Shown one piece after another: positions 2,428 through 55,942 of a stretch of DNA of 64,000 bases. The stretch spans positions 14,043-78,042 of the forward strand of contig LCRX01000002.1 in NCBI GenBank assembly GCA_001004885.1, read 5' to 3'. This DNA comes from Candidatus Magasanikbacteria bacterium GW2011_GWA2_56_11 (GTDB lineage: Bacteria > Patescibacteriota > Patescibacteriia > Magasanikbacterales > UBA922). How positions within the stretch are numbered: the stretch's first letter is position 1; each line of letters starts with the position of its first letter. Position numbers and translations under genes: made by a program. The notes below the pieces were generated by a model. That model was given only the letters and a program-made list of their open reading frames with translations, did not search any database and was not told the origin of the DNA.

Positions 2428-2456
2428 GTTGACGACAGCGGTTTTTTTCTTTAAAA
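2428..2456 (+). promoter_or_regulatory. Sigma70-like promoter TTGACG-17-TAAAAT immediately upstream of repeat copy A1
   Basis: ttgacg acagcggtttttttctt taaaat, 11 nt before the element start. Confidence 0.5.
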
Positions 2457-2468
2457 TAGACTGTTTTT

Positions 2469-2593
2469 GAACTCACAGCCAGTTTCCCCCCTTCGCCGAA
2501 ACATAGACTGGTTTTCGCGGCACCAAAACTCGCTCTTAGAGGCTCAGACATTGGCGTCGCGAAAACCAGTCTATGTTTCGGCTCAACTTAGGA
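2469..2593 (+). repeat. Family-A structured interspersed repeat, copy 1 (3' end diverged; supplies an SD to the downstream ORF)
   Basis: gaactcacagccag…aaacatagactggttttcgcggc…gtcgcgaaaaccagtctatgttt; shares the nested inverted repeats with copies at 7544, 29336, 51598 and 54139. Confidence 0.8.
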
Positions 2594-2605
2594 AGGAGGC
2601 CGGGT

Positions 2606-6894: not shown

Positions 6895-7518
6895 TTAGAC
6901 TTCAGCCCGGCGCGGCGCCGGGGCTTGGTTTTTGTTGATGAACGTCTTTATTTGGTTGGCTTTTTCCGTCGCCAGATTGCCCGTTGTTTCCAACTCTTCG
7001 ATTAGTTCCGTAATTGTCATGACCGAGCGCAAACGGTAGCCCCTGTCTTCGATATATTTTTTTCCGCCTTGTTCGCGGTCGATAAGGACGATGATGTCTT
7101 TTACTATGAGACCTTCATTTTCGAGCGGCTCGACAGTCTCAAATACGCTTGCCCCGCTGGTTACCAGATCTTCGATAATGAGCACCGTTTGTCCCGGGGA
7201 GTAAGATCCCTCCAGCGCTTTTTTGGTGCCATAGTCCTTGACCTCCTTGCGCCGCATGATCATGGGTTTGGCGTGGGAGAGCGACATGGCGGTGGCAATC
7301 GGCAGGGCCGTATAGGGAACGCCGCAGATGAGGTCGAACTGAGCGTCCCGGGCCTGTTCCCACATCGCGTCGGCTACGCCCTGGAGGAGATCGGGGTGGG
7401 AGACGGTGAGCCTGAGATCAATATAGAGCGGGGAGATGAGGCCGCTTTTGAGCGTAAATTCGCCGAATTTAACGGCGCCGATGGCGTAGAGAGCCTGGAT
7501 AAGGTCCGGAGTAGACAT
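6895..7518 (-). CDS. pyrE: Orotate phosphoribosyltransferase
   Basis: [21 protein letters not shown] and PRPP-binding [14 protein letters not shown]. Confidence 0.9.
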
Positions 7519-7543: not shown

Positions 7544-7700
7544 GAACTCACAGCGAGTTCCCCCCCCTTTCGCCTCAAACATAGACTGATTTTCGCGGCC
7601 CCAATGTCTGAGCCCGTAAGAGCGAGTTTTGGTGCCGCGAAAATCAGTCTATGTTTCGGCTCGACTTAGGATAGAATTGCTAGTAACTCGCTGTCAGTTC
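7544..7700 (+). repeat. Family-A structured repeat, copy 2 (28-bp loop inverted relative to the other copies)
   Basis: gaactcacagcgagtt…aaacatagactgattttcgcggcc ccaatgtctgagcccgtaagagcgagtttt ggtgccgcgaaaatcagtctatgttt…aactcgctgtcagttc; sits between pyrE and pyrK, antisense to the operon. Confidence 0.85.
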
Positions 7701-7703
7701 ATT

Positions 7704-8519
7704 TTAATACCTGATTTTTGTTCCGCTTTTGTCGCGGTGGTACGCGCCGAACTCGCTAATCCGGTTGGCCGTTTCGCGGTCTACAACCGGTCCCTCGACA
7801 CACATCCGAATGCCTAACGGGTCGACGCAACATTGTCCGCAGACGCCGAAGCCGCATTTCGTATAGCGTTCCAAGCTGATCTCGCACTCGACGTCGTGCT
7901 CGTTGCAGAGATCCAGCACCTTTTTTTCCATTAGTTCCGGACCGCAGGCGGCGATCAGGCGCGTCTGGGCGCCGGTCTCGAGCAGGAGCTCTTCCAAAAT
8001 TTCGGTTACGTACCCCCGGCGTCCGAGACTGCCGTCATCGGTGGCGATGTGGACCCGCAGGTTCGGAACCGTCTTGACTCTCTGGGCGAAAAGAAGGAGA
8101 CCCTCGGTCTTGGCGCCCAGGCAAAAATCCACCTGGGCGCCGGCCGCGGCGGCTCGTTCGGCTAACAGGGCGAGCGGACCGGCACCGTAACCGCCCCCGA
8201 TTGTGATGTAGTGTCTGTCTTTTTTCACGGAAAACGGATGACCGTAAGGGCCGGTGATTCCGACTCGATCGCCTGGTTGGAGGGAGACTAGAGCCTGGCT
8301 TAAAGGACCGACGGGAAAAACCGTGAAGCCGAATTCGCGCCCGTTGTCGTAGGCCACGGAAAACGGTTTCTGGTCTATCCCCGGCAGCCAGGCCATAACG
8401 AACTGCCCTGGCTGGCTGTGGAGCGCGTGGTCAAAATACAATGTTTTTGCCTGCGCATTTTCCGGTTGGACGCGAGCGATCGGCAGGAGAAGCGGGGAGT
8501 CCATAAAGTTTAGGGACAA
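7704..8519 (-). CDS. pyrK: Dihydroorotate dehydrogenase electron-transfer subunit
   Basis: FAD/NAD-binding fold and C-terminal CGFGVCGQCC 2Fe-2S motif; adjacent to pyrD. Confidence 0.9.
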   Translation of the reverse strand: MSLNFMDSPLLLPIARVQPENAQAKTLYFDHALHSQPGQFVMAWLPGIDQKPFSVAYDNGREFGFTVFPVGPLSQALVSLQPGDRVGITGPYGHPFSVKKDRHYITIGGGYGAGPLALLAERAAAAGAQVDFCLGAKTEGLLLFAQRVKTVPNLRVHIATDDGSLGRRGYVTEILEELLLETGAQTRLIAACGPELMEKKVLDLCNEHDVECEISLERYTKCGFGVCGQCCVDPLGIRMCVEGPVVDRETANRISEFGAYHRDKSGTKIRY

Positions 8520-22760: not shown

Positions 22761-22983
22761 GCCTGTATCGTTAAAGGTTATTTTGAAAGTCCTTGAGATA
22801 AAGGGCTTCTTTTTTGTTTCCCAAAAAGGCAGCCATGCGAAGTACAGAAATAGCAGCGATCCGGTCCGGACGGTTATCGTGCCAATCCACGGCAGAGAAA
22901 TTCCCTACGGCACTTTTCGGTCTATTTTGCGTCAAGCTAATTTGACGGAAGAGGACTCCGAAATAACGAGCCAATCTTTCTAA
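22753..22983 (+). CDS. hicA: HicA-family mRNA interferase toxin
   Basis: PVSLKVILKVLEIKGFFFVSQKGSHAKYRN…VIVPIHGREIPYGTFRSILRQANL; 8-nt overlap with hicB. Confidence 0.8.
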   Translation: MPKPVSLKVILKVLEIKGFFFVSQKGSHAKYRNSSDPVRTVIVPIHGREIPYGTFRSILRQANLTEEDSEITSQSF

Positions 22984-24080
22984 GTTTCCGCCAGAACGAA
23001 AACGCTGCCGGCAGCCGCATCAATCCGGACTAGTTGGCCATCTCTGAGCACCGAGGTGGCCGTTTTGGTTCCTACGATGCAGGGCTTCCGGAGCTCCCGG
23101 CTGACAATGGCCGCGTGCGAGAGGATATTGCCGCGGTCGGTGATGATGGCGCCGGCGCGTTTCATAAGCGGCACGTACTCGACCATGGTCATGGGGCAGA
23201 CCAGGATGTCGCCGTCGTTGAAGTCGGCCGTTATCGGGTCGGTAACAACGCGGACCCGCCCCTCGACCATGCCCGGGCAAGCGCAAATGCCGGTGAGGTC
23301 TCCGGCCGATTCGGGCAGAGCCGCCCGGGCGTCTTTGAGCAGGGTGTACAGGAGTCGGTTGTAATCTATAAACTGGATTTCTCCCGAGGGGAGGACCACG
23401 AACTCGAAGTAGCCTTTGATATGCCCGCTCGGGGTAAATTCTGCCGCTACGCTCTTTTGCAGTTTGGCCCGGAGGCCTGGGTCCGCGACTTTGACGGCGT
23501 CTAGGGCCGACTGGGCGACATTTTGGATATCAGGATCCGGTTCAGACAGCTGGCAGCGCGAGAAATCGTGCGCGAAACTCACGATGGCGTGGTCGTTTAT
23601 GCCCTGGGTCAGCTGCCAGTGCCAGCCGGGCACGATTTCGCCGTAGGCGCCGTGATCGTTGATGAGAAAAATGGCGGCGTAGGGCGTAATTCCGTCTGGG
23701 TGCGGGATGACTTCGACCCGGTACTGGTCCGGATCGATCGCTTGTTCGGAAAACCAGATCAGGTTTTCCTTGAGCGTTTTGCCCCGGACGCGCAGCTTGG
23801 GTAGTTCGGGGTTGTAGGGTATGAGCCGGAGCGCGGTTGGGCGGTCGCCGTGGCTCTTTAGGACCTCGGCAAAGCGCGGCGTCCGGTCTGTAATGTCGCG
23901 GGCGGTAAGGCGTTCCGGACGGTCGTAATTGAGGCCGATTGTTTGGTAAAGCACCTCCAGCCGGTCCCGTTTGGCGTTGTCCTCGGCCCGGAAAGCCTCG
24001 GCGTCGCGGTGGCCGATTTTCTGCAGCCACTCGGTGAGCGAAGGCATGACAGCGTCTTTGATTTCGGAGATGGTGTCCAT
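22980..24080 (-). CDS. Protein with C-terminal PEP-utilising-enzyme mobile (phosphohistidine swivel) domain and unknown ~270-aa N-terminal domain
   Basis: GNILSHAAIVSRELRKPCIVG matches the GGxTSHAAIxAREL swivel signature; high GC, unlike the flanking TA modules. Confidence 0.7.
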   Translation of the reverse strand: MDTISEIKDAVMPSLTEWLQKIGHRDAEAFRAEDNAKRDRLEVLYQTIGLNYDRPERLTARDITDRTPRFAEVLKSHGDRPTALRLIPYNPELPKLRVRGKTLKENLIWFSEQAIDPDQYRVEVIPHPDGITPYAAIFLINDHGAYGEIVPGWHWQLTQGINDHAIVSFAHDFSRCQLSEPDPDIQNVAQSALDAVKVADPGLRAKLQKSVAAEFTPSGHIKGYFEFVVLPSGEIQFIDYNRLLYTLLKDARAALPESAGDLTGICACPGMVEGRVRVVTDPITADFNDGDILVCPMTMVEYVPLMKRAGAIITDRGNILSHAAIVSRELRKPCIVGTKTATSVLRDGQLVRIDAAAGSVFVLAET

Positions 24081-24180: not shown

Positions 24181-24510
24181 ATGCACCTAGAGTTTTGGAG
24201 GGCTCGAGGCGGATCTTCGGATATAGAGGAATTTATGGTCGGTTTGGATGATGCCCAAAAAGACAAGCTCGGATTGGGCTTTGCCGTCCTTGATAAGCAT
24301 GGGTTGCATCTCGCCTTAATATCCCAGCTGGTAAAGCTCGTACATAAAGACCGTCCTAAAGTTTACGAATTGAGATCAGGTAATATTCGCGTCTTGTTCG
24401 GTATTCACAACGGAGTTTATTGGCTATTAGACGGTTTTAGAAAAAAAAGTCGGCAGACGCCGCCCAATCGTCTGAAGAAAGCTGTTGGCCGGATTCAGTC
24501 AATAATATAG
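24181..24510 (+). CDS. higB: HigB/RelE-family (Gp49-like) toxin
   Basis: KVYELRSGNIRVLFGIHNGVYWLLDGFRKKSRQTPPNRLKKA matches the Gp49/HigB core. Confidence 0.75.
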   Translation: MHLEFWRARGGSSDIEEFMVGLDDAQKDKLGLGFAVLDKHGLHLALISQLVKLVHKDRPKVYELRSGNIRVLFGIHNGVYWLLDGFRKKSRQTPPNRLKKAVGRIQSII

Positions 24511-24515
24511 CTCTT

Positions 24516-24947
24516 ATGAAATTAGAAGAACTTAGAAATGGCTTGCTGAGCAATGTCTATAGCCGCGGCGAGAAAAAGAGGCCGCTAGGCTTGGAAATTT
24601 CGCAGATGGTGCTGGAAGCGAGGGTATCTCTCGGTTGGACACAGCAAAAATTGGCCGATCGTATGGGGACGAAACAGCCAAGCATAGCCAGGCTGGAAAA
24701 AGGCGTTGGTTTGCCCAGCCTTTCTTTCCTTGAAAAGATGGCCGAAGTCTTTGGTACGCGATTGGTTCCTCCCCGTTTTGAATTTTTAGACGGCGCTACT
24801 ATGCAAACCGGGGCTGAACTCTCGACCAGGAATATCAGCCGCAACTCTGAGCCGGCTGGGGCTGTCGGCTGCCCTTTTGTGGTCGTGGATGTTAAAAATT
24901 TAACTTCAGGATACAGGTCGTCCCAGGCTATGTTTATTCAGCAGTAA
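24516..24947 (+). CDS. higA: XRE-family HTH antitoxin (HigA-like)
   Basis: LGWTQQKLADRMGTKQPSIARLEKG helix-turn-helix; immediately follows higB. Confidence 0.75.
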   Translation: MKLEELRNGLLSNVYSRGEKKRPLGLEISQMVLEARVSLGWTQQKLADRMGTKQPSIARLEKGVGLPSLSFLEKMAEVFGTRLVPPRFEFLDGATMQTGAELSTRNISRNSEPAGAVGCPFVVVDVKNLTSGYRSSQAMFIQQ

Positions 24948-29293: not shown

Positions 29294-29322
29294 TTGACGG
29301 CAGTGGATAACTGTGCTATGAT
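29294..29322 (+). promoter_or_regulatory. Plus-strand promoter TTGACG-17-TATGAT (TGn extended -10) firing into repeat copy A3 and the LysM gene
   Basis: ttgacg gcagtggataactgtgc tatgat. Confidence 0.6.
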
Positions 29323-29335
29323 GCTGTGTTTTATC

Positions 29336-29490
29336 GGACTCACAGCGAGTTCCCCCCTTTCGCCTCAAACATAGACTGATTTTCACGGCACCAAAACTCG
29401 CTCTTACAGGCTCAGACATTGGTGCGGCTAAAATCAGTCTATGTTTCGGCTCAACTTAGGATAGAATTGCTAACAAGTCACCATCAGTTC
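29336..29490 (+). repeat. Family-A structured repeat, copy 3
   Basis: ggactcacagcgagtt…aaacatagactgattttcacggc…ggctaaaatcagtctatgttt…caccatcagttc. Confidence 0.85.
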
Positions 29491-33960: not shown

Positions 33961-33989
33961 TTGTCAAGATACGCCCGAGCTGGTATACT
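33961..33989 (+). promoter_or_regulatory. Promoter TTGTCA-17-TATACT
   Basis: ttgtca agatacgcccgagctgg tatact; ATG at 34015. Confidence 0.6.
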
Positions 33990-34014
33990 AAGAGTACTTT
34001 TTCGCCTGTCAGGT

Positions 34015-34920
34015 ATGTTCAAACCCCCGAAACCGGAAGATAAATTATCGAAGTACATCGATGCTTCGGGCGATTTTAGCAACCGGGATCTTAAGCTCGG
34101 CGAATGGTACGTCCGCCACAGAATCATGTTGCGCGAGCTCGTCGTCGGGGTGCTCGTCATCTTTTGCGTGGTAGTCGGCGGCTACGGTTTTTACCGCTGG
34201 GCCGAGTACCTGATAGTCGGCTACAGCCGGGACGAGAGACTGCGGGCAGAGCTGACAAAAAATGCCATTCCTTTTGCGCGGCTGCGCGAGCGTCTGGCTC
34301 CGGACACTCTCCAGATCGGGGGCGTGTCCGTATTCCAGAGTGCCTCGGGCAAGTACGATTTTTTTGCCGAAGCGCTTAACCCCAATGCCGATTGGTACGC
34401 TGACGTGGAATACCGGTTCGTTTACCCTGGCGGAGAAACCGAGGCCCGGACAACGCGCCTCTTGCCCGGCAGCCGGCAGCCACTGACCGCGATCGGCATC
34501 GCGGCTCCGAGTTTTCCCTCGGCCCTGCGGCTCGAATTTGTCTCCACTGCCTGGCAGCGGATAGACCGGCACCAGATAGCCGAGCCGGCAGACTACCTGC
34601 GCGACCGGCTTCAGTTTTCGGTCGAGAATTTTTCTTTTCAGAGCGCCGGCGGCCCATCCGAGGCGCCGGCGCATACCATCGCTTTTACGCTTTCCAACCG
34701 TTCCACCTACAGCTACTGGCAGGCGGTTTTTTACGTGCTGTACAAAGATAACGGTTCTCTCGTCGGTTTCAAGCGCCTGGTAGTGGACAATTTTCGGTCG
34801 CAAGAGAGCCGTCCGATAGAGATAAAATCTTTGGCCGACGGACTCAACGTTACCGACATCGACGTTCTTCCGGCCATTGATGTCTTTGCCCAGGGGGTGT
34901 ATATTCCGCTCGGACGATGA
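34015..34920 (+). CDS. Hypothetical single-pass membrane protein
   Basis: One TM helix (LVVGVLVIFCVVVGGYGFY), then a ~240-aa extracytoplasmic domain. Confidence 0.55.
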   Translation: MFKPPKPEDKLSKYIDASGDFSNRDLKLGEWYVRHRIMLRELVVGVLVIFCVVVGGYGFYRWAEYLIVGYSRDERLRAELTKNAIPFARLRERLAPDTLQIGGVSVFQSASGKYDFFAEALNPNADWYADVEYRFVYPGGETEARTTRLLPGSRQPLTAIGIAAPSFPSALRLEFVSTAWQRIDRHQIAEPADYLRDRLQFSVENFSFQSAGGPSEAPAHTIAFTLSNRSTYSYWQAVFYVLYKDNGSLVGFKRLVVDNFRSQESRPIEIKSLADGLNVTDIDVLPAIDVFAQGVYIPLGR

Positions 34921-34937
34921 GGCTGCCCTAGTCCGAA

Positions 34938-35941
34938 TTGATACCTATGAGCCGCTTTTCCTTTGCCGCTCCCTGGACCCGTCATTTTGACTGGCTGCTC
35001 CTGGCAGCCGTACTGACACTGTCTTTGGTCGGTTTGACTTCTATTTACAGCGTTGATCTGTCCCGAGGCGAAGGCCTTAATTTTTTTTCGACGCAGACGC
35101 TCGCGCTTGTAATTGCCCTGGCTGGCTTGCTCGTCGCCGGCGCCCTGCATATTACCTGGTATGAGTCCGGGGCGCGTTTCTTGTATCTGGGCGCCATAAT
35201 CCTTTTGGCGGGTGTTCTGATATTCGGAGAGACGATACGCGGTACGACCGGCTGGTTTCGTTTGGGGACATTTTCGTTTCAGCCGGCCGAATTGTCCAAA
35301 GCGGCCGTGGTTATTTTTCTCGCCTGGCGGATAGAGCGCCAGGGGCGCCAATTCGGCCGGCTGCAGTTTGTGGCGGGCGCTACATACTAGGCCTGGCCGC
35401 GGCCATACTTTTCGCCCTGGCCGCCGGCTGGTTATTTTTATTTCAGGATTACCAAAAAGAACGGCTTTTGACTTTTATTGATCCTGGTCGCGATCCGCTG
35501 GGGGCCGGCTACAATGTGCAGCAGTCGCTGATCGCGGTCGGCGCCGGTCAGTTTTTCGGCCGCGGCCTGGGTTTTGGGTCGCAGAGCCAGCTCCACTTTT
35601 TGCCCGAAGCGCAGACAGACTTTATTATTTCTGTTATCGGCGAGGAGCTTGGTTTCGTCGGTCTATTGATTATTTTGGGCTTGTACGTGGTAATCATTTA
35701 CCGGCTCATCCGCATCGCTGCCGGGTGCCGGACAGATTTTGCCGCCTACACCGTTTTGGGCACGGCTCTGCTATTTTTTATCCAGCTTACCGTGAACGCC
35801 GGGGCCGCGCTTGGCCTTTTGCCGGTTACCGGGGTAACGCTGCCGTTTGTGAGTTACGGCGGCTCGTCGCTTATCATAAATTTTGGGCTGGTGGGCATAG
35901 CCGAGAGCGCCGCCCGTTCGTCGCCCGCTCTGGCGGAGTAG
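34938..35941 (+). pseudogene. rodA: SEDS-family peptidoglycan glycosyltransferase RodA/FtsW, split by a frameshift near 35340-35400
   Basis: ORF1 carries FQPAELSKAAVVIFLAW; ORF2 carries DPLGAGYNVQQS, PEAQTDFIIS, LPVTGVTLPFVSYGGSS; the frame-2 reading continues upstream of 35468 as …YILGLAAAILFALAAGWLF…. Confidence 0.6.
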
Positions 35942-43074: not shown

Positions 43075-46000
43075 ATGAGCCGTCCGCGCCGAACAATTTT
43101 TCATCGTTTGACCGCCTGGCTCGTGCTGTTGACCACCCTGTGGTATTTCACTTTGGGCTTGCTTCCTTTTGGCCTCACCGACCCCACAGTACCGATAGCC
43201 AAAGCCGCCGCTGTTACCTGGGTGGGGCTAGCCACGGGCAACTGGGAAGACGGGGCGAATTGGAACACCGGCGTGGTCCCGACGGCAAGTGACGATGTTA
43301 CGATATCGAGCAGCACCGGCAATATTTCCGTTACTCTTTCCGCCGGCCAGACAGCTAATTTCGCTTCGCTGACTATTGGCGGGGATTCGACTTATTATGT
43401 TACCACGACGCTCGTCGGCAATATCGGAACCGCCGTGAGCAGCACGATCGCCGGCCGGGGAGTTTTGGTTCAGAAAAATGCCGTCGTCCAGACGCTAACA
43501 GGGGATTTGACTATCCAAAGCGGAGGGATTTTGACGCATGAGGCGAACACGACGGCGCAGTCGTACGAGGTAGATTGGAGCGTGGCTAATTTGAATGTTC
43601 AGGCCGGAGGTAAAATTGATGTTGACGGCCAGGGATATACCGGGACAAATGATACCGGCTCATCCGGCAATGGTCCGGGTGGCGGTTACAAATCTGTCAG
43701 CCTCGGCACCGGCGGCGCTCACGCGGGCAACGGCGGCGGACCATCAAACAGCGAAGACGGGCCAGCCGGGTACTGCGATATCACTAATCCAGTCTCCATG
43801 GGTTCGGGCGGCGGCGTTGGCGGCTCCGGATTCGGCGGTTCGGGCGGCGGCGTGATTATTCTCAACGTTTCCGGGACAATCACCGTTAACGGGACGATTA
43901 CCGCCGACGGCGCAACTCCCATTTCCGGTACCAGCGTTGGTGGCGGCGCCGGCGGCGGCGTAAAGATCGTGGCTGGTGACATTGCCGGCACCCCGCAAAG
44001 TTTCACGATTACCGGAGGTGGCGGCCGAAGCACTTATGGCGGCGGCGGGGGCGGAGGTTGCGCCTTTCTGTCTTACACTACTGCCAATAGTATTTTCCCG
44101 ACCAGCACTATTACGATGAATGGCGGCGCCGGCGTATCGGGACAGCGCGGCGGCGGCGGCGTAGTGTATGTAAAACAGACCGGCACCAATGGCGATATTT
44201 ATTCGGTCAATACTGCGCCGGGAGCTCCTTCTGCCCAGGGGGCCACCTCCATCACGGCCGATTCCTTGACGGTGATGGTTTCCTCAACTTACCAGATTGC
44301 CTCGGGCAAAACTTTGGTGCTTAAAAATAGCAGCCCTTTTTCCGGCGGAGACGCATCGGGTACTCTGCGGGTAGATAGCGGCGGTACGTTCACTCCCACG
44401 TCAACCGCCGATTTTACCGTTGCCAGTACCACTCTGGAGATTCACCAGGGTTCTACTGTTACCTCGGCCTCTTCTCTTAACGTGGTTGTTGACTATGGGG
44501 GTGTCCTCAGCCAAGGACGGTATGTGACAACCAGCCCTGCTTTGGGATTGAATACTCTTTATATATTAAACGGCGGTGTTCTCACCCATGCAGCCAATAC
44601 GACGACGCAGAGCCACGTGGTAAATTTGAGCGCGGCTTCTTCTACCGTGGCGGCCGGCGGATTTATTAACCTGGACGGCAGGGGATACGCCGGAGTCAGC
44701 GGCGGAAACGGCAACGGACCGGGCGGCGGCGCGGTAAAAGTATCCAGCACCGGCGGCGGCGGCGGCGCCCATGCCGGCGCCGGCGGAAACGGTTTTAACG
44801 GTTCGGCTGGCGGCGCGGCCTACTGCGTTACAAGTTCTCCGGGTACGATTGGGTCGAGCGGCGGCTATGGCGGAAACGGCGCCAGTCCTGCCGGCGGAGG
44901 CCTGGCCGTGTTAGCTATTACTAATACGCTTACCGTAAATGGTACTATCACGGCGGATGGTGGCGCCGCGCCCGGATCTCAGTCGACTGGTTCTGGCGGC
45001 GGCGGCGTAAAAATCACTGCCGGTGTTATCGCCGGTTCGCCGCAGAGTTTCACCGCTACCGGATCGGCCGGCAGGGGTTCGAGCGGCGGCGGAGGCGGTG
45101 GCTGTATTTATATTGGTTACTCAACCAGCAACAGTATCTCATCCGCGACCGTGTCCGGCGGTGCCGCCGGCGGCAGCGGCGGCTCCACCGCCGGAGGCTC
45201 CGGTGAGTTTAATGCCGCGCAGACCAACCGCGCGCCATCGGCTCCGGCCACTCTCTACGCCCATGCTACCGACGCCCAGTCCGGTACTGCCAACCCGAGC
45301 TGGGTTAGCAGTATTACGCCGGCATTTTCTGCTATTTATGCCGACGACGATGTGGGCGACATCGCGAATAAAGCTCGCATACAAATAGGCACTGACTCTA
45401 ACTTCAGTTCCATTACGCACTGGGATTCCGGGTCATCCGGCACTTCTATCAGCAACTGCACTGCCGGACAGCGCTGTCAAAATATCGTCTACGGTTCTTT
45501 TGGGTCCGCGCCTACCCAGAACTTGGCTCTTAACGATGATGCCGACGAGGCCAGCCAGACGACTTACTACTGGCGCATTAAATTTTTTGACGATAGCAGC
45601 ACCGAGGGCGCTTTCTCCGCCGAGTCGGCGTCGTTTACTTTGCTCGACGCGCCCAATGAACCGACCAATTTGGCCACCTCCTCCCTTAGTATCACAGGTG
45701 TTACCTTGTCCTGGACAGATAATTCGTCACTCGAAAACAACTACGTTTTGCAGGTTTCCGAGGACGGCGGGGGCACTTATTCGACCGCTTCGACCACCGT
45801 GGCCAACACCACGTCCGTGACTACCAGCACACTGTCGGCCGATACCCGCTATGTTTATCGCGTACACGGAGCCAACACGGCCGGCGACTCCGATGCCATC
45901 GCCACAGCGGCTTTTTACACTTTGGCCAATGCGCCGGGAACACCGACGCCGGGTACGGTTACTGCCGCCACAATCCCTATTACCATCTCCGTAAACGGCA

Positions 46001-49000
46001 ACCCCACGAATACCCTGTACGCCGTCTTTGATACCATCTCTGACACTTACGTGGGAGCCGACGGCTCGGCTTCGGCCGGGCCGGTATTCCAAACTACGTC
46101 TACCTGGGGCAACAATTTTGCCCGCAGCGGGCTTACCCCCAACACCCAACATGCGTTCGCCGTGGTTGCGCGCAACGGAGACGGCGTAAGCACGGCTACC
46201 TCCACGGCCAGCGCCGCCGTCTACACACTGGCCGCCACTCCGTCGTCGGCGAGCGCCAGCGCCGACAGCGCCAGCCAGATCACGGTTTCCTGGAACGCCA
46301 ACTCCAACGCGCCGGGTACTAGCTATTACGCGGAGGATGCCGGTTCGCCGACGCGCGCTTCGGGCTGGATTACCGCCACCTCATACACATTTAGCGGGTT
46401 GAGCGCCGGTACAGCCTATACGTTTCGGGTCAAGGCGCGTAATGACGAGGGCACGCAAACAGATTTTGGTTCATCGGTAACGGCGACTACTTTGCCGTCC
46501 GGCGGATCTCCTTCTCCCACTCCTCCGGCACCGCCGCCGCCGCCATCGCCGACCCCCTATATTTCGGCAGAAGAAATAATCGAGTTTGCCCCTACCGGGC
46601 TCATTAAAATTATTTCTGTTTCCGGCGAAACCGAAGTTGATGTCCTTGACGGAGCGGGCATAGCGGCGCCCCATGTCGTGAATGGTTATAGCCAGGTGAA
46701 AGGCGTGTCCAGTGATGACGGTATCCTCGACCTGTCATCTCCATTTAGCCTGGATTTTTCTTTTGCCCTCGACAAGACGCCCCTTGATTCAAGTCTGGCC
46801 GGGAAAAAGCGCCGGTTGTTTTCGAAGTACGACGCCTACAATGCCGGGTACAGCACGAATAACGATATCGCGGCCACGAAAGGATTTTGTTTCAGCGCCG
46901 GCACCGGGCAGGTCTGCGATTACCGCAATCCGTTCGTGAAGAGTACCTATGTTTATAATATTGTCTGGTCAGGCAGCACTCTCGATCTCATCGAGAATAA
47001 TAAAAAATTGGATAGCGCCCCGCTGGCGGCTATCCCCAAGAGCCAGCACCCTTTGGCTATTGGCGGTGAATTAGTCCCGTACCAAAATGGCAAGTACGCC
47101 ACTTCGTTTTATCCGTTCACTCTTTATACGCTGCGCCTGAAACAAGATCCCGGACTGCTTATCTACACCAACACGCCCGTAGTCAAGCTTAAAATAGATG
47201 CCACGTATGCGCAGCAGCTGGCCCTAAAGGAGAGCCATGGCTCTCCGTACACCGATTTTTCGGAAGTGTCGTTCAACCCGGTGGTTTCCGAGCTCACTTG
47301 GCAGCTGGCCGGAGAGGACGGTAAAAAATGCGTTAATGCCCGGTTTAAGGGAATTGAAGGCAAAAACCTTACGTATGATACCTATGCTTGCGTCATTCTG
47401 GATCGTGTCAAGCCTTCCGCCGACTTTTTGATCGACGCCGGGCCGGCCAATCCAACGGCCGCCGCCCCGCGCATTTACGGCGTAAGCGAACCCAAGGCCG
47501 TGATTGTCATCACCAAAAAGAGCAAACAAGCCGCGGCCGCTTTGGCCTCAGCGGCGGAAAAGGCGACTTTTCATCTCGCGGCTGAACCGGCAGCCTATAC
47601 CACCATGGCCGATAACACCGGTGCTTGGAGTTACACCTTTTCCGCCCCGTTTAACCCCGGCGACCATATTATTACTGTTCAGGCCACTGATCCGGCCGGC
47701 AATACCTCGGACCCGGTGAGTCAAGAGCTGTCCGTAACTACGCCTCTCCCGTCCGAACCGGATCCGGAGGACACTAAACCCGATGAAATCGAAGATAAAA
47801 AAGAAGACACTAAACCGTCTGACCAAGACCAAGAAGACACTAAAACCGATGAGACTGAGAAGGGAGATGAGGTAAAAAAGGACGATACGGCGGTGGCCGA
47901 TGCCGAAGAAGAAAAGACGACCAACCCTGACCAGGCGGACCAGCCGGTACTGAGTCTGCCAGGAGAAGCCGGGCCGGGTTTGGCACCAATCGCCCGGCGA
48001 CCGGATCGGGCGGCTGGCAAGGAGGAGTTGGCACCGATGGCAGAGGTGCCAGAATCGGAACAAGCCGCGGCCGCGGCCGAAATGATCGCTCCTGCATTTG
48101 GCCCCTCCCTTTTGTCTCAGGTATGGAATAAGTGGCGCGCGCTGAAAGATAATCCCTTTCTCGAGAAAATCAACGAAACGGCCGCGGCCCCGGCCATCGC
48201 CCTCTTGGGTGCTGCCAATCTGGCTGTTGGCGTTCAAATTCCGCGTCTTTTAGCCCTGCTGCGGTATCTGTTCAGCCAGCCGGCGCTCCTTTTGCGCCGA
48301 CGCAAGTACAAAGGCTGGGGCACGGTCTACAATGCCTACAGCAAGCTGCCCGTGGATCTGGCCACGATTCGTCTCATCAGCGATGAAACAAATAAAGTGG
48401 TTAGCTCCCAGGTAACGGATTTTTACGGCCGCTATTTTATCTCGGCGGAAAACGGCCGTTTTCGCCTGGAGGTCATTAAACCAGGATTCACGGGTTTCAG
48501 CGCGCTGTTGAGGGAACAGACCGAGGACGCCAAGTACCTCAATCTGTACCACGGAGAGGCTTTTTATCCGCCGGAGTCCGGGAGCGCCGTTACCTACAGT
48601 ATCCCGCTCGATCCGGAGACGATCATCAAGCCCACGACCCAGATTCTCAAAGACCATTCCCGGTCGGTGTTGCAACAGGCGTTTACTTTGGTGGGATTGG
48701 GCGCCAGTTTGGTCTCGTTTGCCGTCTCACCCACTCCAGGCGTGGGGTTTCTCGTGGGGCTGCATGTCATTTTTTACTTTTTATTCCATCGTCTGGCGCA
48801 CCGTCGGCTTCCCAGTTCCTGGGGCGTAGTCCGCGATCTGAAGGACAAATCAACGCTGTCGAGAGTGGTTATCCGCGTCTTTGACGCCGCTTACAATAAA
48901 TTGGTCAATACCGCTGTTACCGACAGCCGCGGCCGTTATGCCGTGCTGGTCGGGCCAAGCCGGTATTACGTCATGTACGAAAAAGACGGCTACCACCGGA

Positions 49001-49137
49001 AGCAGTCGCCGACTTTGGACTTTAGCTCAGAAAAGACCGGCGGCCTGGGCGGTATCATCAACCGGTCGGAGATGATGGAAAGGGGGACAGGCTCTCCGGC
49101 GGCGTCGGAATCCGGCGGACCGAATCCAGGGCTTTGA
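43075..49137 (+). CDS. Giant (2020-aa) membrane-anchored surface protein: N-terminal signal/TM, duplicated Gly-rich beta-helix-like module, FN3 domains, Pro-rich and acidic repeat linkers, C-terminal TM segments and two CarboxypepD_reg-like beta-sandwich domains
   Basis: Single uninterrupted ORF; GNWEDGANWNTGVVP…; two ~300-aa paralogous Gly-rich modules; FN3-like LSITGVTLSWTDNS…YVYRVHGAN; PPAPPPPPSP; EDTKPDEIEDKKEDTKPSDQDQEDTK; VVSSQVTDFYGRYFISAENGRFRLEV and RVFDAAYNKLVNTAVTDSRGRYAV. Confidence 0.8.
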   Translation: MSRPRRTIFHRLTAWLVLLTTLWYFTLGLLPFGLTDPTVPIAKAAAVTWVGLATGNWEDGANWNTGVVPTASDDVTISSSTGNISVTLSAGQTANFASLTIGGDSTYYVTTTLVGNIGTAVSSTIAGRGVLVQKNAVVQTLTGDLTIQSGGILTHEANTTAQSYEVDWSVANLNVQAGGKIDVDGQGYTGTNDTGSSGNGPGGGYKSVSLGTGGAHAGNGGGPSNSEDGPAGYCDITNPVSMGSGGGVGGSGFGGSGGGVIILNVSGTITVNGTITADGATPISGTSVGGGAGGGVKIVAGDIAGTPQSFTITGGGGRSTYGGGGGGGCAFLSYTTANSIFPTSTITMNGGAGVSGQRGGGGVVYVKQTGTNGDIYSVNTAPGAPSAQGATSITADSLTVMVSSTYQIASGKTLVLKNSSPFSGGDASGTLRVDSGGTFTPTSTADFTVASTTLEIHQGSTVTSASSLNVVVDYGGVLSQGRYVTTSPALGLNTLYILNGGVLTHAANTTTQSHVVNLSAASSTVAAGGFINLDGRGYAGVSGGNGNGPGGGAVKVSSTGGGGGAHAGAGGNGFNGSAGGAAYCVTSSPGTIGSSGGYGGNGASPAGGGLAVLAITNTLTVNGTITADGGAAPGSQSTGSGGGGVKITAGVIAGSPQSFTATGSAGRGSSGGGGGGCIYIGYSTSNSISSATVSGGAAGGSGGSTAGGSGEFNAAQTNRAPSAPATLYAHATDAQSGTANPSWVSSITPAFSAIYADDDVGDIANKARIQIGTDSNFSSITHWDSGSSGTSISNCTAGQRCQNIVYGSFGSAPTQNLALNDDADEASQTTYYWRIKFFDDSSTEGAFSAESASFTLLDAPNEPTNLATSSLSITGVTLSWTDNSSLENNYVLQVSEDGGGTYSTASTTVANTTSVTTSTLSADTRYVYRVHGANTAGDSDAIATAAFYTLANAPGTPTPGTVTAATIPITISVNGNPTNTLYAVFDTISDTYVGADGSASAGPVFQTTSTWGNNFARSGLTPNTQHAFAVVARNGDGVSTATSTASAAVYTLAATPSSASASADSASQITVSWNANSNAPGTSYYAEDAGSPTRASGWITATSYTFSGLSAGTAYTFRVKARNDEGTQTDFGSSVTATTLPSGGSPSPTPPAPPPPPSPTPYISAEEIIEFAPTGLIKIISVSGETEVDVLDGAGIAAPHVVNGYSQVKGVSSDDGILDLSSPFSLDFSFALDKTPLDSSLAGKKRRLFSKYDAYNAGYSTNNDIAATKGFCFSAGTGQVCDYRNPFVKSTYVYNIVWSGSTLDLIENNKKLDSAPLAAIPKSQHPLAIGGELVPYQNGKYATSFYPFTLYTLRLKQDPGLLIYTNTPVVKLKIDATYAQQLALKESHGSPYTDFSEVSFNPVVSELTWQLAGEDGKKCVNARFKGIEGKNLTYDTYACVILDRVKPSADFLIDAGPANPTAAAPRIYGVSEPKAVIVITKKSKQAAAALASAAEKATFHLAAEPAAYTTMADNTGAWSYTFSAPFNPGDHIITVQATDPAGNTSDPVSQELSVTTPLPSEPDPEDTKPDEIEDKKEDTKPSDQDQEDTKTDETEKGDEVKKDDTAVADAEEEKTTNPDQADQPVLSLPGEAGPGLAPIARRPDRAAGKEELAPMAEVPESEQAAAAAEMIAPAFGPSLLSQVWNKWRALKDNPFLEKINETAAAPAIALLGAANLAVGVQIPRLLALLRYLFSQPALLLRRRKYKGWGTVYNAYSKLPVDLATIRLISDETNKVVSSQVTDFYGRYFISAENGRFRLEVIKPGFTGFSALLREQTEDAKYLNLYHGEAFYPPESGSAVTYSIPLDPETIIKPTTQILKDHSRSVLQQAFTLVGLGASLVSFAVSPTPGVGFLVGLHVIFYFLFHRLAHRRLPSSWGVVRDLKDKSTLSRVVIRVFDAAYNKLVNTAVTDSRGRYAVLVGPSRYYVMYEKDGYHRKQSPTLDFSSEKTGGLGGIINRSEMMERGTGSPAASESGGPNPGL

Positions 49138-51597: not shown

Positions 51598-51753
51598 GAA
51601 CTCACAGCGAGTTTCCCCACTTTTGCCTCAAACATAGACTGATTTTCGCGGCCCCAAAACTCGCTCTTACAGGCTCAGACATTGGCGCCGCGAAAATCAG
51701 TCTATGTTTCGGCTCAACTTAGGAGAGAATTGCTGATAACTCACTATCAGTTT
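51598..51753 (+). repeat. Family-A structured repeat, copy 4
   Basis: gaactcacagcgagttt…aaacatagactgattttcgcggc…gccgcgaaaatcagtctatgttt…cttaggagagaattgctga…; preceded by TGcTATACT extended -10. Confidence 0.85.
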
Positions 51754-54138: not shown

Positions 54139-54289
54139 GAACTCACAGCGAGCCCCCCTTCGCCGAAACATAGACTGATTTTCGCGGCCCCAAAACTCGC
54201 TCTTACAGGCTCAGACATTGGTGCCGCGAAAATCAGTCTATGTTTCGGCTCGACTTAGGATAGAATTGCTGATAACTCACTGCCAGTTC
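54139..54289 (+). repeat. Family-A structured repeat, copy 5 (ends 2 nt before the gpmI ATG)
   Basis: gaactcacagcgag…aaacatagactgattttcgcggc cccaaaactcgctcttacaggctcagacattggtg ccgcgaaaatcagtctatgttt…aactcactgccagttc; preceded by TTGTTT-17-TATAAT. Confidence 0.85.
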
Positions 54290-54290
54290 T

Positions 54291-55865
54291 ATGGCTGCAC
54301 ACCCGCAGGGACAAGTACAGCGCATCCGTCCGACTCTTCTTATCATTCTCGATGGCTTCGGTTTAGCCCCGGCCGAGAATCCGGGCAACGCCATCACTCC
54401 CCAAACCGCGCCCCATATTTTTGGCTGCCTGGAGCGCTATCCGTCTACCATCCTCAAAGCCCACGGTCGCGATGTCGGGCTGTTTGCGTCGCAGGAGGGC
54501 AATTCCGAGGCCGGACACTTCAATATCGGCGCCGGCCGGGTGGTGGAACAGGATTTGGTCCGGATTTCCCGGGCCATCAAAGATGGAACTTTTTTCAAGA
54601 ATGAGGCTTTCGCGCAAGCGGTTTATCACGTCGAAAAATATCAGGCGGCGGTCCATGTGATGGGGCTGTTGAGCGGCGGGCAAAGCGCGCACGCTCACCC
54701 GAAGCACCTATACGCCCTTCTGGAATATTTGCGTCGTCAGAAAGTAAAAAAAATCTATTTGCATCTGTTTACCGACGGGCGCGATTCGCCGCCGCATGCG
54801 GCCATCCGGCATCTGCGCGAGCTGCGCAAAGAGATGAAAAACGGCGAGCGTATCGCCACCATTATGGGACGATTCTACGCCATGGACCGCAATAAGTCCT
54901 GGGAGCGCACCGGGCGGGCGTATGCCGCCATGGTACACGGTAAGGGAGAATGCGGGTCTGCGAGCGCCGAAGAGGCGCTGTCGCAGGCGTACAACCGGGG
55001 CGAAACTGACGAATACGTGTTGCCGACGATCGTGTGCGAGAACGGTCAAGGGAGCGCCACAATCCAGGATAATGACGCGATATTTTTTTTCAATGCCCGC
55101 AGCGACCGCGCGCGCCAGATTACCAAGGCCTTCGTCCAGCCTGATTTTGCGAAAAAAAATCCCGGCGCTTTCCGCCGGGAGCGTTGCCCCAAAAACATCC
55201 GTTTTGTGGCCATGACCGACTTTGGACCGGATTTGCCCGGAATTTTCACCGCTTTTCCGAGTCCCGACGTACCGCTGAGTTTGGCCCGGGCAATCGGCGA
55301 GAATTACCGACAGCTGTATATATCGGAAACGGAAAAATACGCTCACGTAACTTATTTTATCAACGGCGGGGACGCCGAGCCGATAAACGGCGAAGCGCGG
55401 GAACTCGTGCGTTCGTCCGGCCATTACTCTTACGCGGCGGCGCCGGAAATGAGCGCGGTGGAATTGACCGCCAGAATCGTCCGGTATCTGCAAGACGGCG
55501 TTTACGATTTTATCACGGTGAATTTTCCCAATGCCGACATGGTCGGGCACACAGGCGACTGGCAGGCAGCCAAACGCGCTGTCCGGGCGGTCGACCGGGC
55601 GGTCCGGCGGCTCACGGACGCGGTGCTCAAATTGAAGGGCCAGGCCGTAATTACCGCCGATCATGGCAATGCCGAAGAAATGATCAACTCCCAAACCGCA
55701 GAGATAATGACCGAGCACACCCGGAATCCCGTGCCGTTTATCGTGGTCCGCCGGAATTTCGCGGCCAAGCTTCGCCCTGGCCGGCTCGCCGACGTGGCGC
55801 CGACGCTGCTTAAGCTCATGGGGGTGGATAAGCCAAAAGAGATGACCGGAAAAGCGTTATTTTAG
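54291..55865 (+). CDS. gpmI: 2,3-bisphosphoglycerate-independent phosphoglycerate mutase (paralogue 1)
   Basis: LIILDGFGLAP, GNSEAGHFNIGAGR (Ser nucleophile retained), DGRDSPP, TADHGN. Confidence 0.88.
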   Translation: MAAHPQGQVQRIRPTLLIILDGFGLAPAENPGNAITPQTAPHIFGCLERYPSTILKAHGRDVGLFASQEGNSEAGHFNIGAGRVVEQDLVRISRAIKDGTFFKNEAFAQAVYHVEKYQAAVHVMGLLSGGQSAHAHPKHLYALLEYLRRQKVKKIYLHLFTDGRDSPPHAAIRHLRELRKEMKNGERIATIMGRFYAMDRNKSWERTGRAYAAMVHGKGECGSASAEEALSQAYNRGETDEYVLPTIVCENGQGSATIQDNDAIFFFNARSDRARQITKAFVQPDFAKKNPGAFRRERCPKNIRFVAMTDFGPDLPGIFTAFPSPDVPLSLARAIGENYRQLYISETEKYAHVTYFINGGDAEPINGEARELVRSSGHYSYAAAPEMSAVELTARIVRYLQDGVYDFITVNFPNADMVGHTGDWQAAKRAVRAVDRAVRRLTDAVLKLKGQAVITADHGNAEEMINSQTAEIMTEHTRNPVPFIVVRRNFAAKLRPGRLADVAPTLLKLMGVDKPKEMTGKALF

Positions 55866-55942
55866 GCGGGGTTTTAACAGTCCCAAGCCGTCGAGCGCGC
55901 CTGGGCAACTCGTAACTCTGACAGCAAAATTTCTCAACTGCT

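What the first reader, a model, noticed from the sequence alone, without database searches (positions are those of the whole stretch)
7544..7700. Hairpin-loop inversion: the 28-bp core of copy 2 is the reverse complement of the core in the other four copies
In copies 1, 3, 4 and 5 the segment between the perfect 23-bp inverted repeats reads cccaaaactcgctcttacaggctcagacattggtg. In the copy at 7544-7700 it reads cccaatgtctgagcccgtaagagcgagttttggtg. That is the exact reverse complement apart from one SNP, while both flanks keep the same orientation. So a short DNA segment bounded by long inverted repeats has flipped. This could arise by recombination or template switching across the inverted repeat, or by a site-specific invertase (inverton-like). 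The flip changes which arm the loop motif can pair with: 5' arm agcgagtt versus 3' arm aactcgct. If the element is transcribed, the inversion would toggle between alternative RNA folds.
Basis: seen in the sequence. Interest (0 to 1): 0.8.

Follow-up and report, generated by a model that had tools for sequence, protein, structure and literature searches.

The report
Flipped loop in a repeated hairpin element
One copy of a roughly 155-base hairpin-forming repeat in a groundwater CPR bacterium really does carry its loop backwards, but the flip is fixed rather than switching, and in every copy where a direction could be assigned the loop points the same way as the neighbouring gene.

Summary
At 7605-7628 a 24-nt core, bounded by CCAA/TTGG and perfect 23-bp inverted arms, is the reverse complement (1 SNP) of the core in the four other window copies.

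The element is an undescribed palindromic intergenic repeat of about 155 nt in Candidatus Magasanikbacteria GW2011_GWA2_56_11. I found at least 15 copies, with no Rfam, plasmid or phage match. Most copies have a sigma70-like promoter aimed into them.

Three of the 15 copies are flipped, in at least two lineages. Each locus has one orientation in every independent assembly: c2 8/8, a second locus 7/7, a third 3/3. No recombinase domain was found in the window. A phase-variable inverton is therefore not supported.

The new result is loop polarity. In all 12 copies where direction can be called, the loop has the same polarity relative to the adjacent promoter or gene. The three flipped copies are exactly the three whose flanks lie backwards. 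The unpaired loop is as conserved as the stems.

Best reading: rare inverted-repeat-mediated spacer inversions, retained because the loop works only in the sense orientation of the transcript.

The function, the mobility mechanism and the unusually tight breakpoints remain open.

The parts
7544..7700 (+). Copy 2 (c2) of the repeat. Its flanks are in + orientation. It lies between the pyrK stop (7704) and the pyrE start (7518), both on the - strand, so it is transcribed in its antisense-flank direction.
7544..7559 (+). 5' outer arm GAACTCACAGCGAGTT. It pairs with 7685-7700, and together with the next C it is itself a 6-bp mini-hairpin.
7560..7576 (+). C-rich 5' bulge, the most variable part of the family.
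7577..7599 (+). Inner inverted-repeat arm AAACATAGACTGATTTTCGCGGC.
7600..7604 (+). C (mismatch partner of T 7633) followed by CCAA, which pairs with TTGG at 7629-7632. The mismatch is not swapped in flipped copies, so the inversion breakpoints lie inside or at CCAA/TTGG.
7605..7628 (-). Inverted 24-nt loop core. Read on the - strand it is the family's standard loop AACTCGCTCTTACgGGCTCAGACA, with 1 SNP.
7629..7633 (+). TTGG followed by T, the mismatch partner of C 7600.
7634..7656 (+). Inner inverted-repeat arm, the perfect complement of 7577-7599.
7657..7684 (+). 3' bulge CGGCTCGACTTAGGATAGAATTGCTAGT. Its start is conserved in the Legionella MAG relatives.
7685..7700 (+). 3' outer arm AACTCGCTGTCAGTTC.
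2469..2596 (+). Copy 1 (c1), standard loop. The 3' end is missing and the element runs into the RBS and ATG (2607) of a + strand gene.
2429..2457 (+). Promoter-like site TTGACG-17-TAAAAT aimed into c1, 11 nt upstream.
29336..29490 (+). Copy 3 (c3), standard loop, 3 arm mismatches. It lies between convergent genes.
29294..29322 (+). Promoter-like site TTGACG-17-TATGAT with extended TG, aimed into c3.
51598..51753 (+). Copy 4 (c4), standard loop, between PGK and a DUF541 gene (both +). A TATACT box lies 12 nt upstream.
54139..54289 (+). Copy 5 (c5), standard loop, between enolase and iPGM (both +). It ends 1 nt before the iPGM ATG. TATAAT lies 12 nt upstream. Several assemblies break here.
6895..7518 (-). 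pyrE (orotate phosphoribosyltransferase). Its start codon is 25 nt from c2.
7704..8519 (-). pyrK-like dihydroorotate dehydrogenase electron-transfer subunit. Its stop codon is 3 nt from c2.

Best explanation
The element is one member of an undescribed family of palindromic intergenic repeats of about 155 nt in a CPR bacterium (Candidatus Magasanikbacteria GW2011_GWA2_56_11).

Anatomy of each copy:
- a 16-nt outer inverted repeat;
- two asymmetric bulges;
- a 23-bp inner inverted repeat extended by CCAA/TTGG;
- a conserved 24-nt loop.

Most copies sit just downstream of a sigma70-like promoter and just upstream of a gene, or between genes of an operon. They are therefore probably transcribed as 5' leaders or intercistronic hairpins. 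This transcription is inferred, not shown.

The flipped loop of copy 2 is a fixed evolutionary inversion of the spacer between the inner arms. It was most likely produced by recombination or template switching across the inverted repeat, not by an invertase. That mechanism is inferred.

Such flips happened at least twice in this genome. They persist only in copies whose flanks lie backwards relative to local transcription. As a result the loop has the same polarity in the transcript in every copy, and its AACUCGCU motif stays complementary to the transcript's 5' arm.

I infer that the loop carries a strand-specific function in the RNA and that selection keeps it in the sense orientation. That function could be a protein or RNA binding site, or an alternative pairing with the 5' arm. 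The function itself is unknown.
For: Observation and copies:
- Five window copies, with one loop reverse-complemented.
- Ten further copies of the same genome.
- Flipped copies are c2, L029 4356-4511 and L022 8983-9137.

Fixation:
- Orientation is identical in all independent assemblies of each locus.
- No recombinase or transposase Pfam domain in the window.

Number of flips:
- Flipped copies do not cluster on non-loop sequence. c2 is nearest to L014, L029 to L016, and L022b to L013.
- L029 and L022b share a homologous promoter-bearing flank, so they form one lineage.

Polarity:
- Gene and promoter context gives 12 copies where direction can be called. The loop is in sense in 12/12. The flanks are in sense in 9/12. 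The 3 exceptions are the 3 flipped copies (1 in 220 by Fisher's exact test, post hoc).
- For L029 and L022b a TTGTCG-17/18-TATAGT/TATACT promoter with extended TG points into the element from the end that is the 3' end in the other copies.

Loop constraint:
- After orientation is normalised, the 24-nt loop differs by 0.061 per site between copies. The inner arms differ by 0.050-0.061, the bulges by 0.19-0.33 and the outer arms by 0.10-0.17.

Insertion history:
- The syntenic relative L030 has no room for the element at the c1 and c2 sites, and nhmmer finds no copy in L030-L033.

Mechanism precedent:
- Template switching between IR arms homogenises the arms and inverts the spacer (PMC8604942, PMC5941160).
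- All three flipped copies have arms that are perfect or differ at one position.
Against: - Transcription is inferred only from promoter-like motifs and gene order. No expression data were available.
- The polarity rule was formulated after seeing the data. The copies are related, so the effective sample is smaller than 12, with only two flipped lineages.
- All three flipped copies keep the C...T mismatch just outside CCAA/TTGG. The inverted tract therefore ends within a 4-bp repeat. Simple template switching or crossover in the 23-bp arms should usually swap this mismatch or correct it to C-G or A-T.
- Covariation favours a full-length rod on the strand that is antisense in most copies. That strand has 19 positions varying only through G.U against 6 through A.C. 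The sense strand gives three separate hairpins. So the biologically relevant strand is not settled.
- Assembly consensus cannot exclude minority orientations in the population.
Confidence: 0.6

Rival explanations
1. Inverton: a site-specific recombinase flips the loop reversibly, giving phase variation that toggles the leader RNA between two folds.
For: - Perfect inverted repeats flank the invertible segment.
- Both states exist in the genome.
- The breakpoints are oddly precise, within CCAA/TTGG, in all three flipped copies. That is more typical of a site-specific reaction than of homology-driven exchange.
Against: - One orientation per locus across 3-8 independent assemblies from different samples, with no exception in about 40 locus-by-assembly observations.
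- No recombinase domain in the 64-kb window or among the precomputed Pfam annotations of the loci fetched from this genome.
- The spacer is only 24-34 bp. By my own knowledge this is too short for synapsis of two recombinase-bound sites on duplex DNA.
- The orientation correlates with a fixed property of the locus, its transcription direction.
Confidence: 0.06
2. Neutral by-product: the loop flips now and then by template switching or hairpin-mediated recombination, as in plastid small inversions. Fixation is by drift, and the match with gene direction is a coincidence of small numbers.
For: - A known mechanism that needs nothing beyond the inverted repeat (PMC8604942, PMC5941160).
- Only two independent flipped lineages.
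- The polarity rule is post hoc.
Against: - The loop is in sense in 12/12 copies, and all flips fall exactly in the three copies with antisense flanks.
- The unpaired loop is as conserved as the stems, which argues that its sequence matters.
Confidence: 0.22
3. Old subfamilies: a single ancient flip created a flipped subfamily that then spread as a unit. On this view copy 2 never inverted at its present locus.
For: - All three flipped copies share the C...T mismatch flanking CCAA/TTGG.
- L029 and L022b share the flank promoter and a terminal CCAGTC.
Against: - c2 is closer to standard copies (0.07-0.08) than to L029 or L022b (0.12-0.13) on non-loop sequence, and shares no diagnostic change with them.
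- C...T also occurs in the standard copies c5 and L022a.
- The sequences are short and gene conversion could blur the signal, so this test is weak.
Confidence: 0.2
4. Assembly artefact: the palindromic arms let an assembler place the loop in the wrong orientation.
For: The repeats do break assemblies. Several contigs end inside copies.
Against: The same orientation is recovered at each of three loci by MEGAHIT (k127 and k141), SPAdes, the original Rifle scaffolds and JGI assemblies. The 24-34 nt loop plus an arm is shorter than a read, so reads span it.
Confidence: 0.01

Closest known systems
Hairpin-associated small inversions and IR-spacer inversion by template switching (plastid non-coding DNA; yeast and bacterial quasi-palindromes)
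   Same: A short spacer between inverted-repeat arms is replaced by its exact reverse complement while the flanks stay put. The arms are kept complementary. The event recurs in related sequences (PMC8604942, PMC5941160, PMC12928735).
   Different: - The inversion lies inside a multi-copy element.
- Its outcome is non-random with respect to transcription direction.
- The breakpoints fall within the innermost 4 bp rather than anywhere in the 23-bp arms, and the adjacent arm mismatch is not corrected.
Invertons (phase-variable invertible promoters such as fimS, hin, and Bacteroides invertons)
   Same: Inverted repeats flank an invertible segment next to genes.
   Different: There is no population heterogeneity at assembly level and no invertase nearby. 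The segment is only 24 nt and carries no recognisable promoter. The arms are part of a dispersed repeat.
Correia repeat-enclosed elements (Neisseria) and ERIC/YPAL elements (enterobacteria): MITE-like palindromic intergenic repeats
   Same: - Size of about 100-155 bp, terminal inverted repeats, dozens of intergenic copies.
- Co-transcription with neighbouring genes as long hairpins.
- Association with promoters.
- Effects on mRNA that depend on orientation (PMC2229807, PMC2649163).
   Different: - No sequence similarity and a different phylum (CPR).
- No target-site duplication seen.
- The promoter is outside the element and points into it.
- Polarity is carried by the loop alone and can be reset by inversion, which to my knowledge has not been described for those families.
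REPINs (REP doublets forming hairpins, mobilised by RAYT transposases)
   Same: A long hairpin built from inverted terminal units, each of which is itself a small palindrome (GAACTC-ACAGC-GAGTTC). The elements are intergenic, have no target-site duplication, and evolve within the genome as a population (PMC3116915).
   Different: Copy number is much lower. There is a large conserved inner hairpin and loop. No RAYT or Y1 transposase was found in the sequence examined, and there is no consistent GTAG or CGTC tag.

Membership tests
Inverton (recombinase-driven phase-variable inversion) | Inverted repeats flank the invertible DNA | tested here: met
   23-bp perfect arms plus CCAA/TTGG
Inverton (recombinase-driven phase-variable inversion) | Both orientations coexist at one locus in a population | tested here: not met
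   One orientation per locus in 3-8 independent assemblies. Minority reads could not be tested.
Inverton (recombinase-driven phase-variable inversion) | A cognate tyrosine or serine invertase, usually nearby | tested here: not met
   No such Pfam domain in 50 window ORFs scanned (nearly all of those of at least 100 aa). The few not scanned are annotated as pyr, miaA/miaB and iPGM genes in identical loci. The rest of the genome was not searched.
IR-spacer inversion by template switching or hairpin recombination | Spacer is the exact reverse complement, with flanks unchanged | tested here: met
   23/24 identity to the reverse complement
IR-spacer inversion by template switching or hairpin recombination | Arms are homogenised, and mismatches inside the switched tract are swapped or corrected | tested here: inconclusive
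   Flipped copies have arms that are perfect or differ at one position. However, the C...T mismatch next to CCAA/TTGG is unchanged in all three.
MITE | Terminal inverted repeats | tested here: met
   GAACTCACAGCGAGTT / AACTCGCTGTCAGTTC, 15/16 in c2
MITE | Target-site duplication | tested here: not met
   No consistent direct repeat flanks the 15 copies
MITE | Multi-copy, with presence/absence between related genomes | tested here: met
   At least 15 copies. The syntenic sites in L030 (pyrE 69% identical) are empty. The relative is distant, so this shows lineage-specific gain, not recent mobility.
MITE | A parent transposon with the same ends | not testable with these tools
   No extra occurrence of the terminal repeat in the window. 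The full genome could not be scanned.
REPIN/REP-RAYT | RAYT (Y1 transposase) gene flanked by the repeats | not testable with these tools
   None in the roughly 250 kb of this genome held, as far as it is annotated. The genome is incomplete here.
Any Rfam RNA family | Match at the gathering score | tested here: not met
   No hit in the window. Only weak hairpin-shaped chance hits at E<10.

The most novel reading that the evidence does not exclude
The repeat is a promoter-plus-leader module that this CPR bacterium has spread in front of unrelated housekeeping genes. Its apical 24-nt loop is a polarity-sensitive RNA signal.

On this reading the inner inverted repeat works as a built-in orientation corrector. 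A precise inversion bounded by CCAA/TTGG, possibly catalysed, resets the loop to the sense strand when a copy lands backwards. The same reaction could act as a slow on/off switch for the downstream gene.
Probability: 0.15. Interest if true: 0.75.

Novelty: new variant of a known kind. Interest (0 to 1): 0.5.

Why it matters
Gene regulation in CPR (Patescibacteria) bacteria is almost unknown, and their small genomes carry few recognisable regulators. A dispersed promoter-proximal hairpin with a strongly conserved loop of fixed polarity, sitting in front of pyrimidine, glycolysis and cell-envelope genes, would be a candidate general cis-regulatory or mRNA-stability module for this lineage.

It also gives a natural experiment. 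The same element occurs with its flanks in both orientations but its loop always in one. That separates which part of a palindromic repeat matters in the transcript. It also shows that inverted-repeat-mediated spacer inversion can be adaptive rather than mere noise.

If instead the polarity rule is coincidence, the finding reduces to an ordinary hairpin-loop inversion in a new repeat family.

Tried and rejected
Searches that found nothing:
- Rfam at gathering and at E<10: nothing relevant.
- blastn against the plasmid and phage collections: no match.
- Viral contig scan: none.
- Literature search for the arm sequence: one unrelated paper, a C. elegans study.

Searches with limited yield:
- The genome-contig scan found only one true relative, a Legionella MAG with two copies. 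It also found two unrelated palindromes.
- Several metagenome pattern hits (L012/L025, L020, L021, L023, L024) look like chance or different palindromes. L015/L027/L028 may be a distant relative. It has the same ATAGACTGATTTT box and a GGTTTAACTT bulge, but nhmmer did not confirm it.

Hypotheses considered and dropped:
- Retron ncRNA: no reverse transcriptase nearby, and the msr part is too short.
- Integron attC: no RYYYAAC/GTTRRRY boxes, and housekeeping genes lie between copies.
- Riboswitch or T-box: the downstream genes are unrelated.
- Small ORF: no conserved reading frame.
- All four of these were judged from the sequence and gene context.

Tests that were not decisive:
- Replication-strand bias. 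All 6 copies in and next to the window share one orientation on a constant GC skew. Elsewhere, though, 4 copies lie on the locally G-rich strand and 5 on the C-rich strand, and two copies 2 kb apart are inverted.
- Walking 12 kb to the left of the window found no new copy.

Full report
**1. The observation**

The common loop sequence matches five places in the window. Four are on the + strand (2522, 29390, 51653, 54189) and one is on the - strand at 7599-7633. None is expected by chance. The asymmetric parts of the element are on the + strand in all five copies. These are the 5' arm GAACTCACAGCGAGTT, the C-rich bulge and the 3' bulge CGGCTCRACTTAGGA.

In copy 2 (c2) the inner arms are 7577-7599 and 7634-7656, a perfect 23/23 inverted repeat. 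Between them lie C(7600), CCAA, a 24-nt core (7605-7628), TTGG and T(7633). The reverse complement of the core differs from the family consensus by one base.

The arms of copies 1 and 3 are not perfect (1 and 3 mismatches between the arms), and copy 1 lacks the 3' end of the element.

**2. Source and nature of the element**

Proteins of the window are identical to entries of Candidatus Magasanikbacteria bacterium GW2011_GWA2_56_11. This is a CPR bacterium from the Rifle aquifer. The window is ordinary chromosome: the pyr operon, miaA/miaB, gatB, gyrB, PGK, enolase, two iPGM genes and several tRNA synthetases.

The element matches no Rfam family and nothing in the plasmid or phage collections.

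A pattern scan of metagenome contigs, followed by nhmmer, recovered nine further distinct copies on contigs whose proteins carry accession numbers of the same genome. One more copy lies 10 kb to the right of the window. That makes at least 15 copies.

A Legionella MAG has two relatives. They share the base of the inner stem and the start of the 3' bulge, but have a different outer stem and a different apical part.

A syntenic Magasanikbacteria relative (pyrE 69% identical) has no space for the element at the c1 and c2 sites. No copy is found in about 60 kb of two related genomes. The copies are therefore lineage-specific gains.

No target-site duplication is visible.

**3. Is it a switch?**

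For each locus I collected every independent assembly I could reach.
- c2 is flipped in the window and in 7 other assemblies.
- The L029 locus is flipped in 7 of 7.
- L022b is flipped in 3 of 3.
- Every standard locus is standard in all its assemblies.

These assemblies come from different samples and different assemblers, and they differ by occasional SNPs. They are therefore not copies of one another.

No recombinase, integrase or transposase domain is present in the window's ORFs. At the level of consensus sequence there is thus no phase variation. Only read-level data could reveal a minority state.

**4. How many flips?**

On non-loop sequence the three flipped copies are each closer to standard copies than to one another. 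However, L029 and L022b share a homologous promoter-bearing flank and a terminal CCAGTC, so they form one lineage. c2 shares none of this.

I conclude that there were at least two inversion events. One old flipped subfamily cannot be excluded, because all three flipped copies share the C...T mismatch flanking CCAA/TTGG.

**5. The polarity rule**

Gene context was established with ORF maps, Pfam and the called genes of the fetched loci.

Nine of the 15 copies have a -10-like hexamer 10-13 nt from the element, and many of these also have a TTGnnn -35 at the right spacing. The promoter scanner finds sites pointing into four copies:
- c1: TTGACG-17-TAAAAT.
- c3: TTGACG-17-TATGAT, with extended TG.
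- L029: TTGTCG-17-TATAGT, with TG.
- L022b: TTGTCG-18-TATACT, with TG.

In L029 and L022b the promoter enters from what is the 3' end in the other copies.

c2 lies inside the minus-strand pyr operon, 3 nt after pyrK and 25 nt before pyrE.

Direction was taken from the nearest gene that starts next to the element and points away from it, or from operon read-through. Twelve copies can be called in this way. In all twelve the loop has the same polarity relative to transcription. The flanks agree in only nine. The three disagreeing copies are exactly the three flipped ones (1/220 by Fisher's exact test).

This test is post hoc, and relatedness of the copies reduces its weight.

In the sense transcript of every copy, the loop motif AACUCGCU is complementary to the transcript's 5' arm. 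The match is 8/8 in most copies and at least 6/8 in all (read from the sequences).

After orientation is normalised, the unpaired loop is as conserved as the stems. It differs by 0.061 per site, against 0.050-0.061 for the stems. The bulges differ by 0.19-0.33 and the outer arms by 0.10-0.17.

**6. Mechanism**

What is shown: a precise inversion of a 24-nt spacer between long inverted arms, fixed at each locus, in at least two lineages.

What is inferred: the flip arose by recombination or template switching across the inverted repeat. That process is known to homogenise arms and invert spacers (PMC8604942, PMC5941160). It could equally have arisen by gene conversion from an inversely oriented copy aligned through the palindromic arms. 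The flip was then retained because the loop functions only in the sense orientation of the transcript.

The closest functional analogues are two other families of palindromic intergenic repeats:
- ERIC elements, whose orientation in the mRNA decides transcript stability.
- Correia elements, which bring promoters and RNase III sites (PMC2229807, PMC2649163).

Two possible reasons for the polarity, both speculation:
- a need for pairing between the 5' arm and the loop;
- avoidance of the exposed AUG and the purine-rich AAGAG tract that the antisense loop would present.

**7. What does not fit**

First, the inverted tract ends inside CCAA/TTGG in all three flipped copies. The C...T mismatch one base further out is neither swapped nor corrected. 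Exchange within the 23-bp arms should usually give C-G, A-T or A...G at that position. Either the events are unusually precise, or the three flipped copies share their central part by descent.

Second, RNAfold and RNAalifold favour the strand that is antisense in most copies.
- Every copy folds 5-17 kcal/mol better on that strand.
- The consensus on that strand is a full rod, with 19 positions varying only through G.U against 6 through A.C.
- The sense strand gives three separate hairpins, one of which has its own wobble-compatible variation.
- The Legionella and L015 relatives show no consistent bias.

The strand on which structure is selected is therefore unresolved. This may reflect a single-stranded mobility intermediate rather than the transcript.

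**8. Verdict**

The inversion is real and recurrent. It is not an assembly artefact. By all evidence available it is not a phase-variable inverton.

The element is a new family of a known kind, a palindromic intergenic repeat. The inversion mechanism is of a known kind, IR-spacer inversion. What is new is the strict polarity of a conserved loop relative to transcription, with flips occurring exactly where the flanks are backwards. I rate this as moderate interest.

Noticed in passing
L001 747-852 and 1982-2092 (Legionella sp. MAG JARLJQ010000005.1): Two relatives of the element lie 1.2 kb apart in a gammaproteobacterial MAG. They share GCCGAAATAGACTGATTTTC...GAAATCAGTCTATTTCGGCTCAAC(C/T)TAG, but have a different outer stem with compensatory changes between the two copies. 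This suggests either a conserved core with a wide host range or horizontal transfer.
   Followed up: partly
L015 4726-4799 (also L027, L028): A hairpin of about 190 nt in another metagenome has the same ATAGACTGATTTT/AAAATCAGTCTAT box and a 3' bulge GGTTTAACTT that resembles GGCTCAACTT. It may be a distant member of the family. nhmmer did not confirm it.
   Followed up: partly
window 54139-54289; L041, L044, L045, L046, L047: Several independent assemblies end or start inside copies of the element, and L047 begins with an apparently chimeric join. The repeat fragments this MAG's assemblies.
   Followed up: no
window 33961-35941: The FtsW/RodA family gene appears split into two ORFs, 34938-35390 and 35468-35941, which match the N- and C-terminal parts of PF01098. 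They are preceded by an ORF with no Pfam hit. This could be a frameshift, an insertion or a genuinely split gene.
   Followed up: no
window 54291-57520: Two tandem paralogues of cofactor-independent phosphoglycerate mutase (524 and 525 aa).
   Followed up: no
window 22980-24080 and L013 7500-12800: The C-terminal PEP-utilisers mobile domain of this 366-aa ORF has at least six tblastx-similar copies in tandem on another contig of the same genome (L013), and single copies in L010 and L011. This looks like an expanded paralogous family.
   Followed up: no
window 24181-24947: A Gp49-like (DUF891) ORF followed by an HTH_3 ORF, the arrangement of a HigB/HigA-type toxin-antitoxin pair.
   Followed up: no
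L032 9913-10001: In another Magasanikbacteria genome from the same site, the pyrK-pyrE spacer is filled with a different short repeat, CCTATTGGCTACGAACTAT and its complement. Different lineages appear to place different repeats at the same junction.
   Followed up: no
L022 8983-11440: Two copies in inverted orientation, one flipped and one standard, bracket a single subtilisin-like S8 peptidase gene in the manner of a composite element.
   Followed up: partly
window 43075-49137: A 2020-aa ORF with fibronectin type III and bacterial Ig-like domains, probably a giant surface protein.
   Followed up: no
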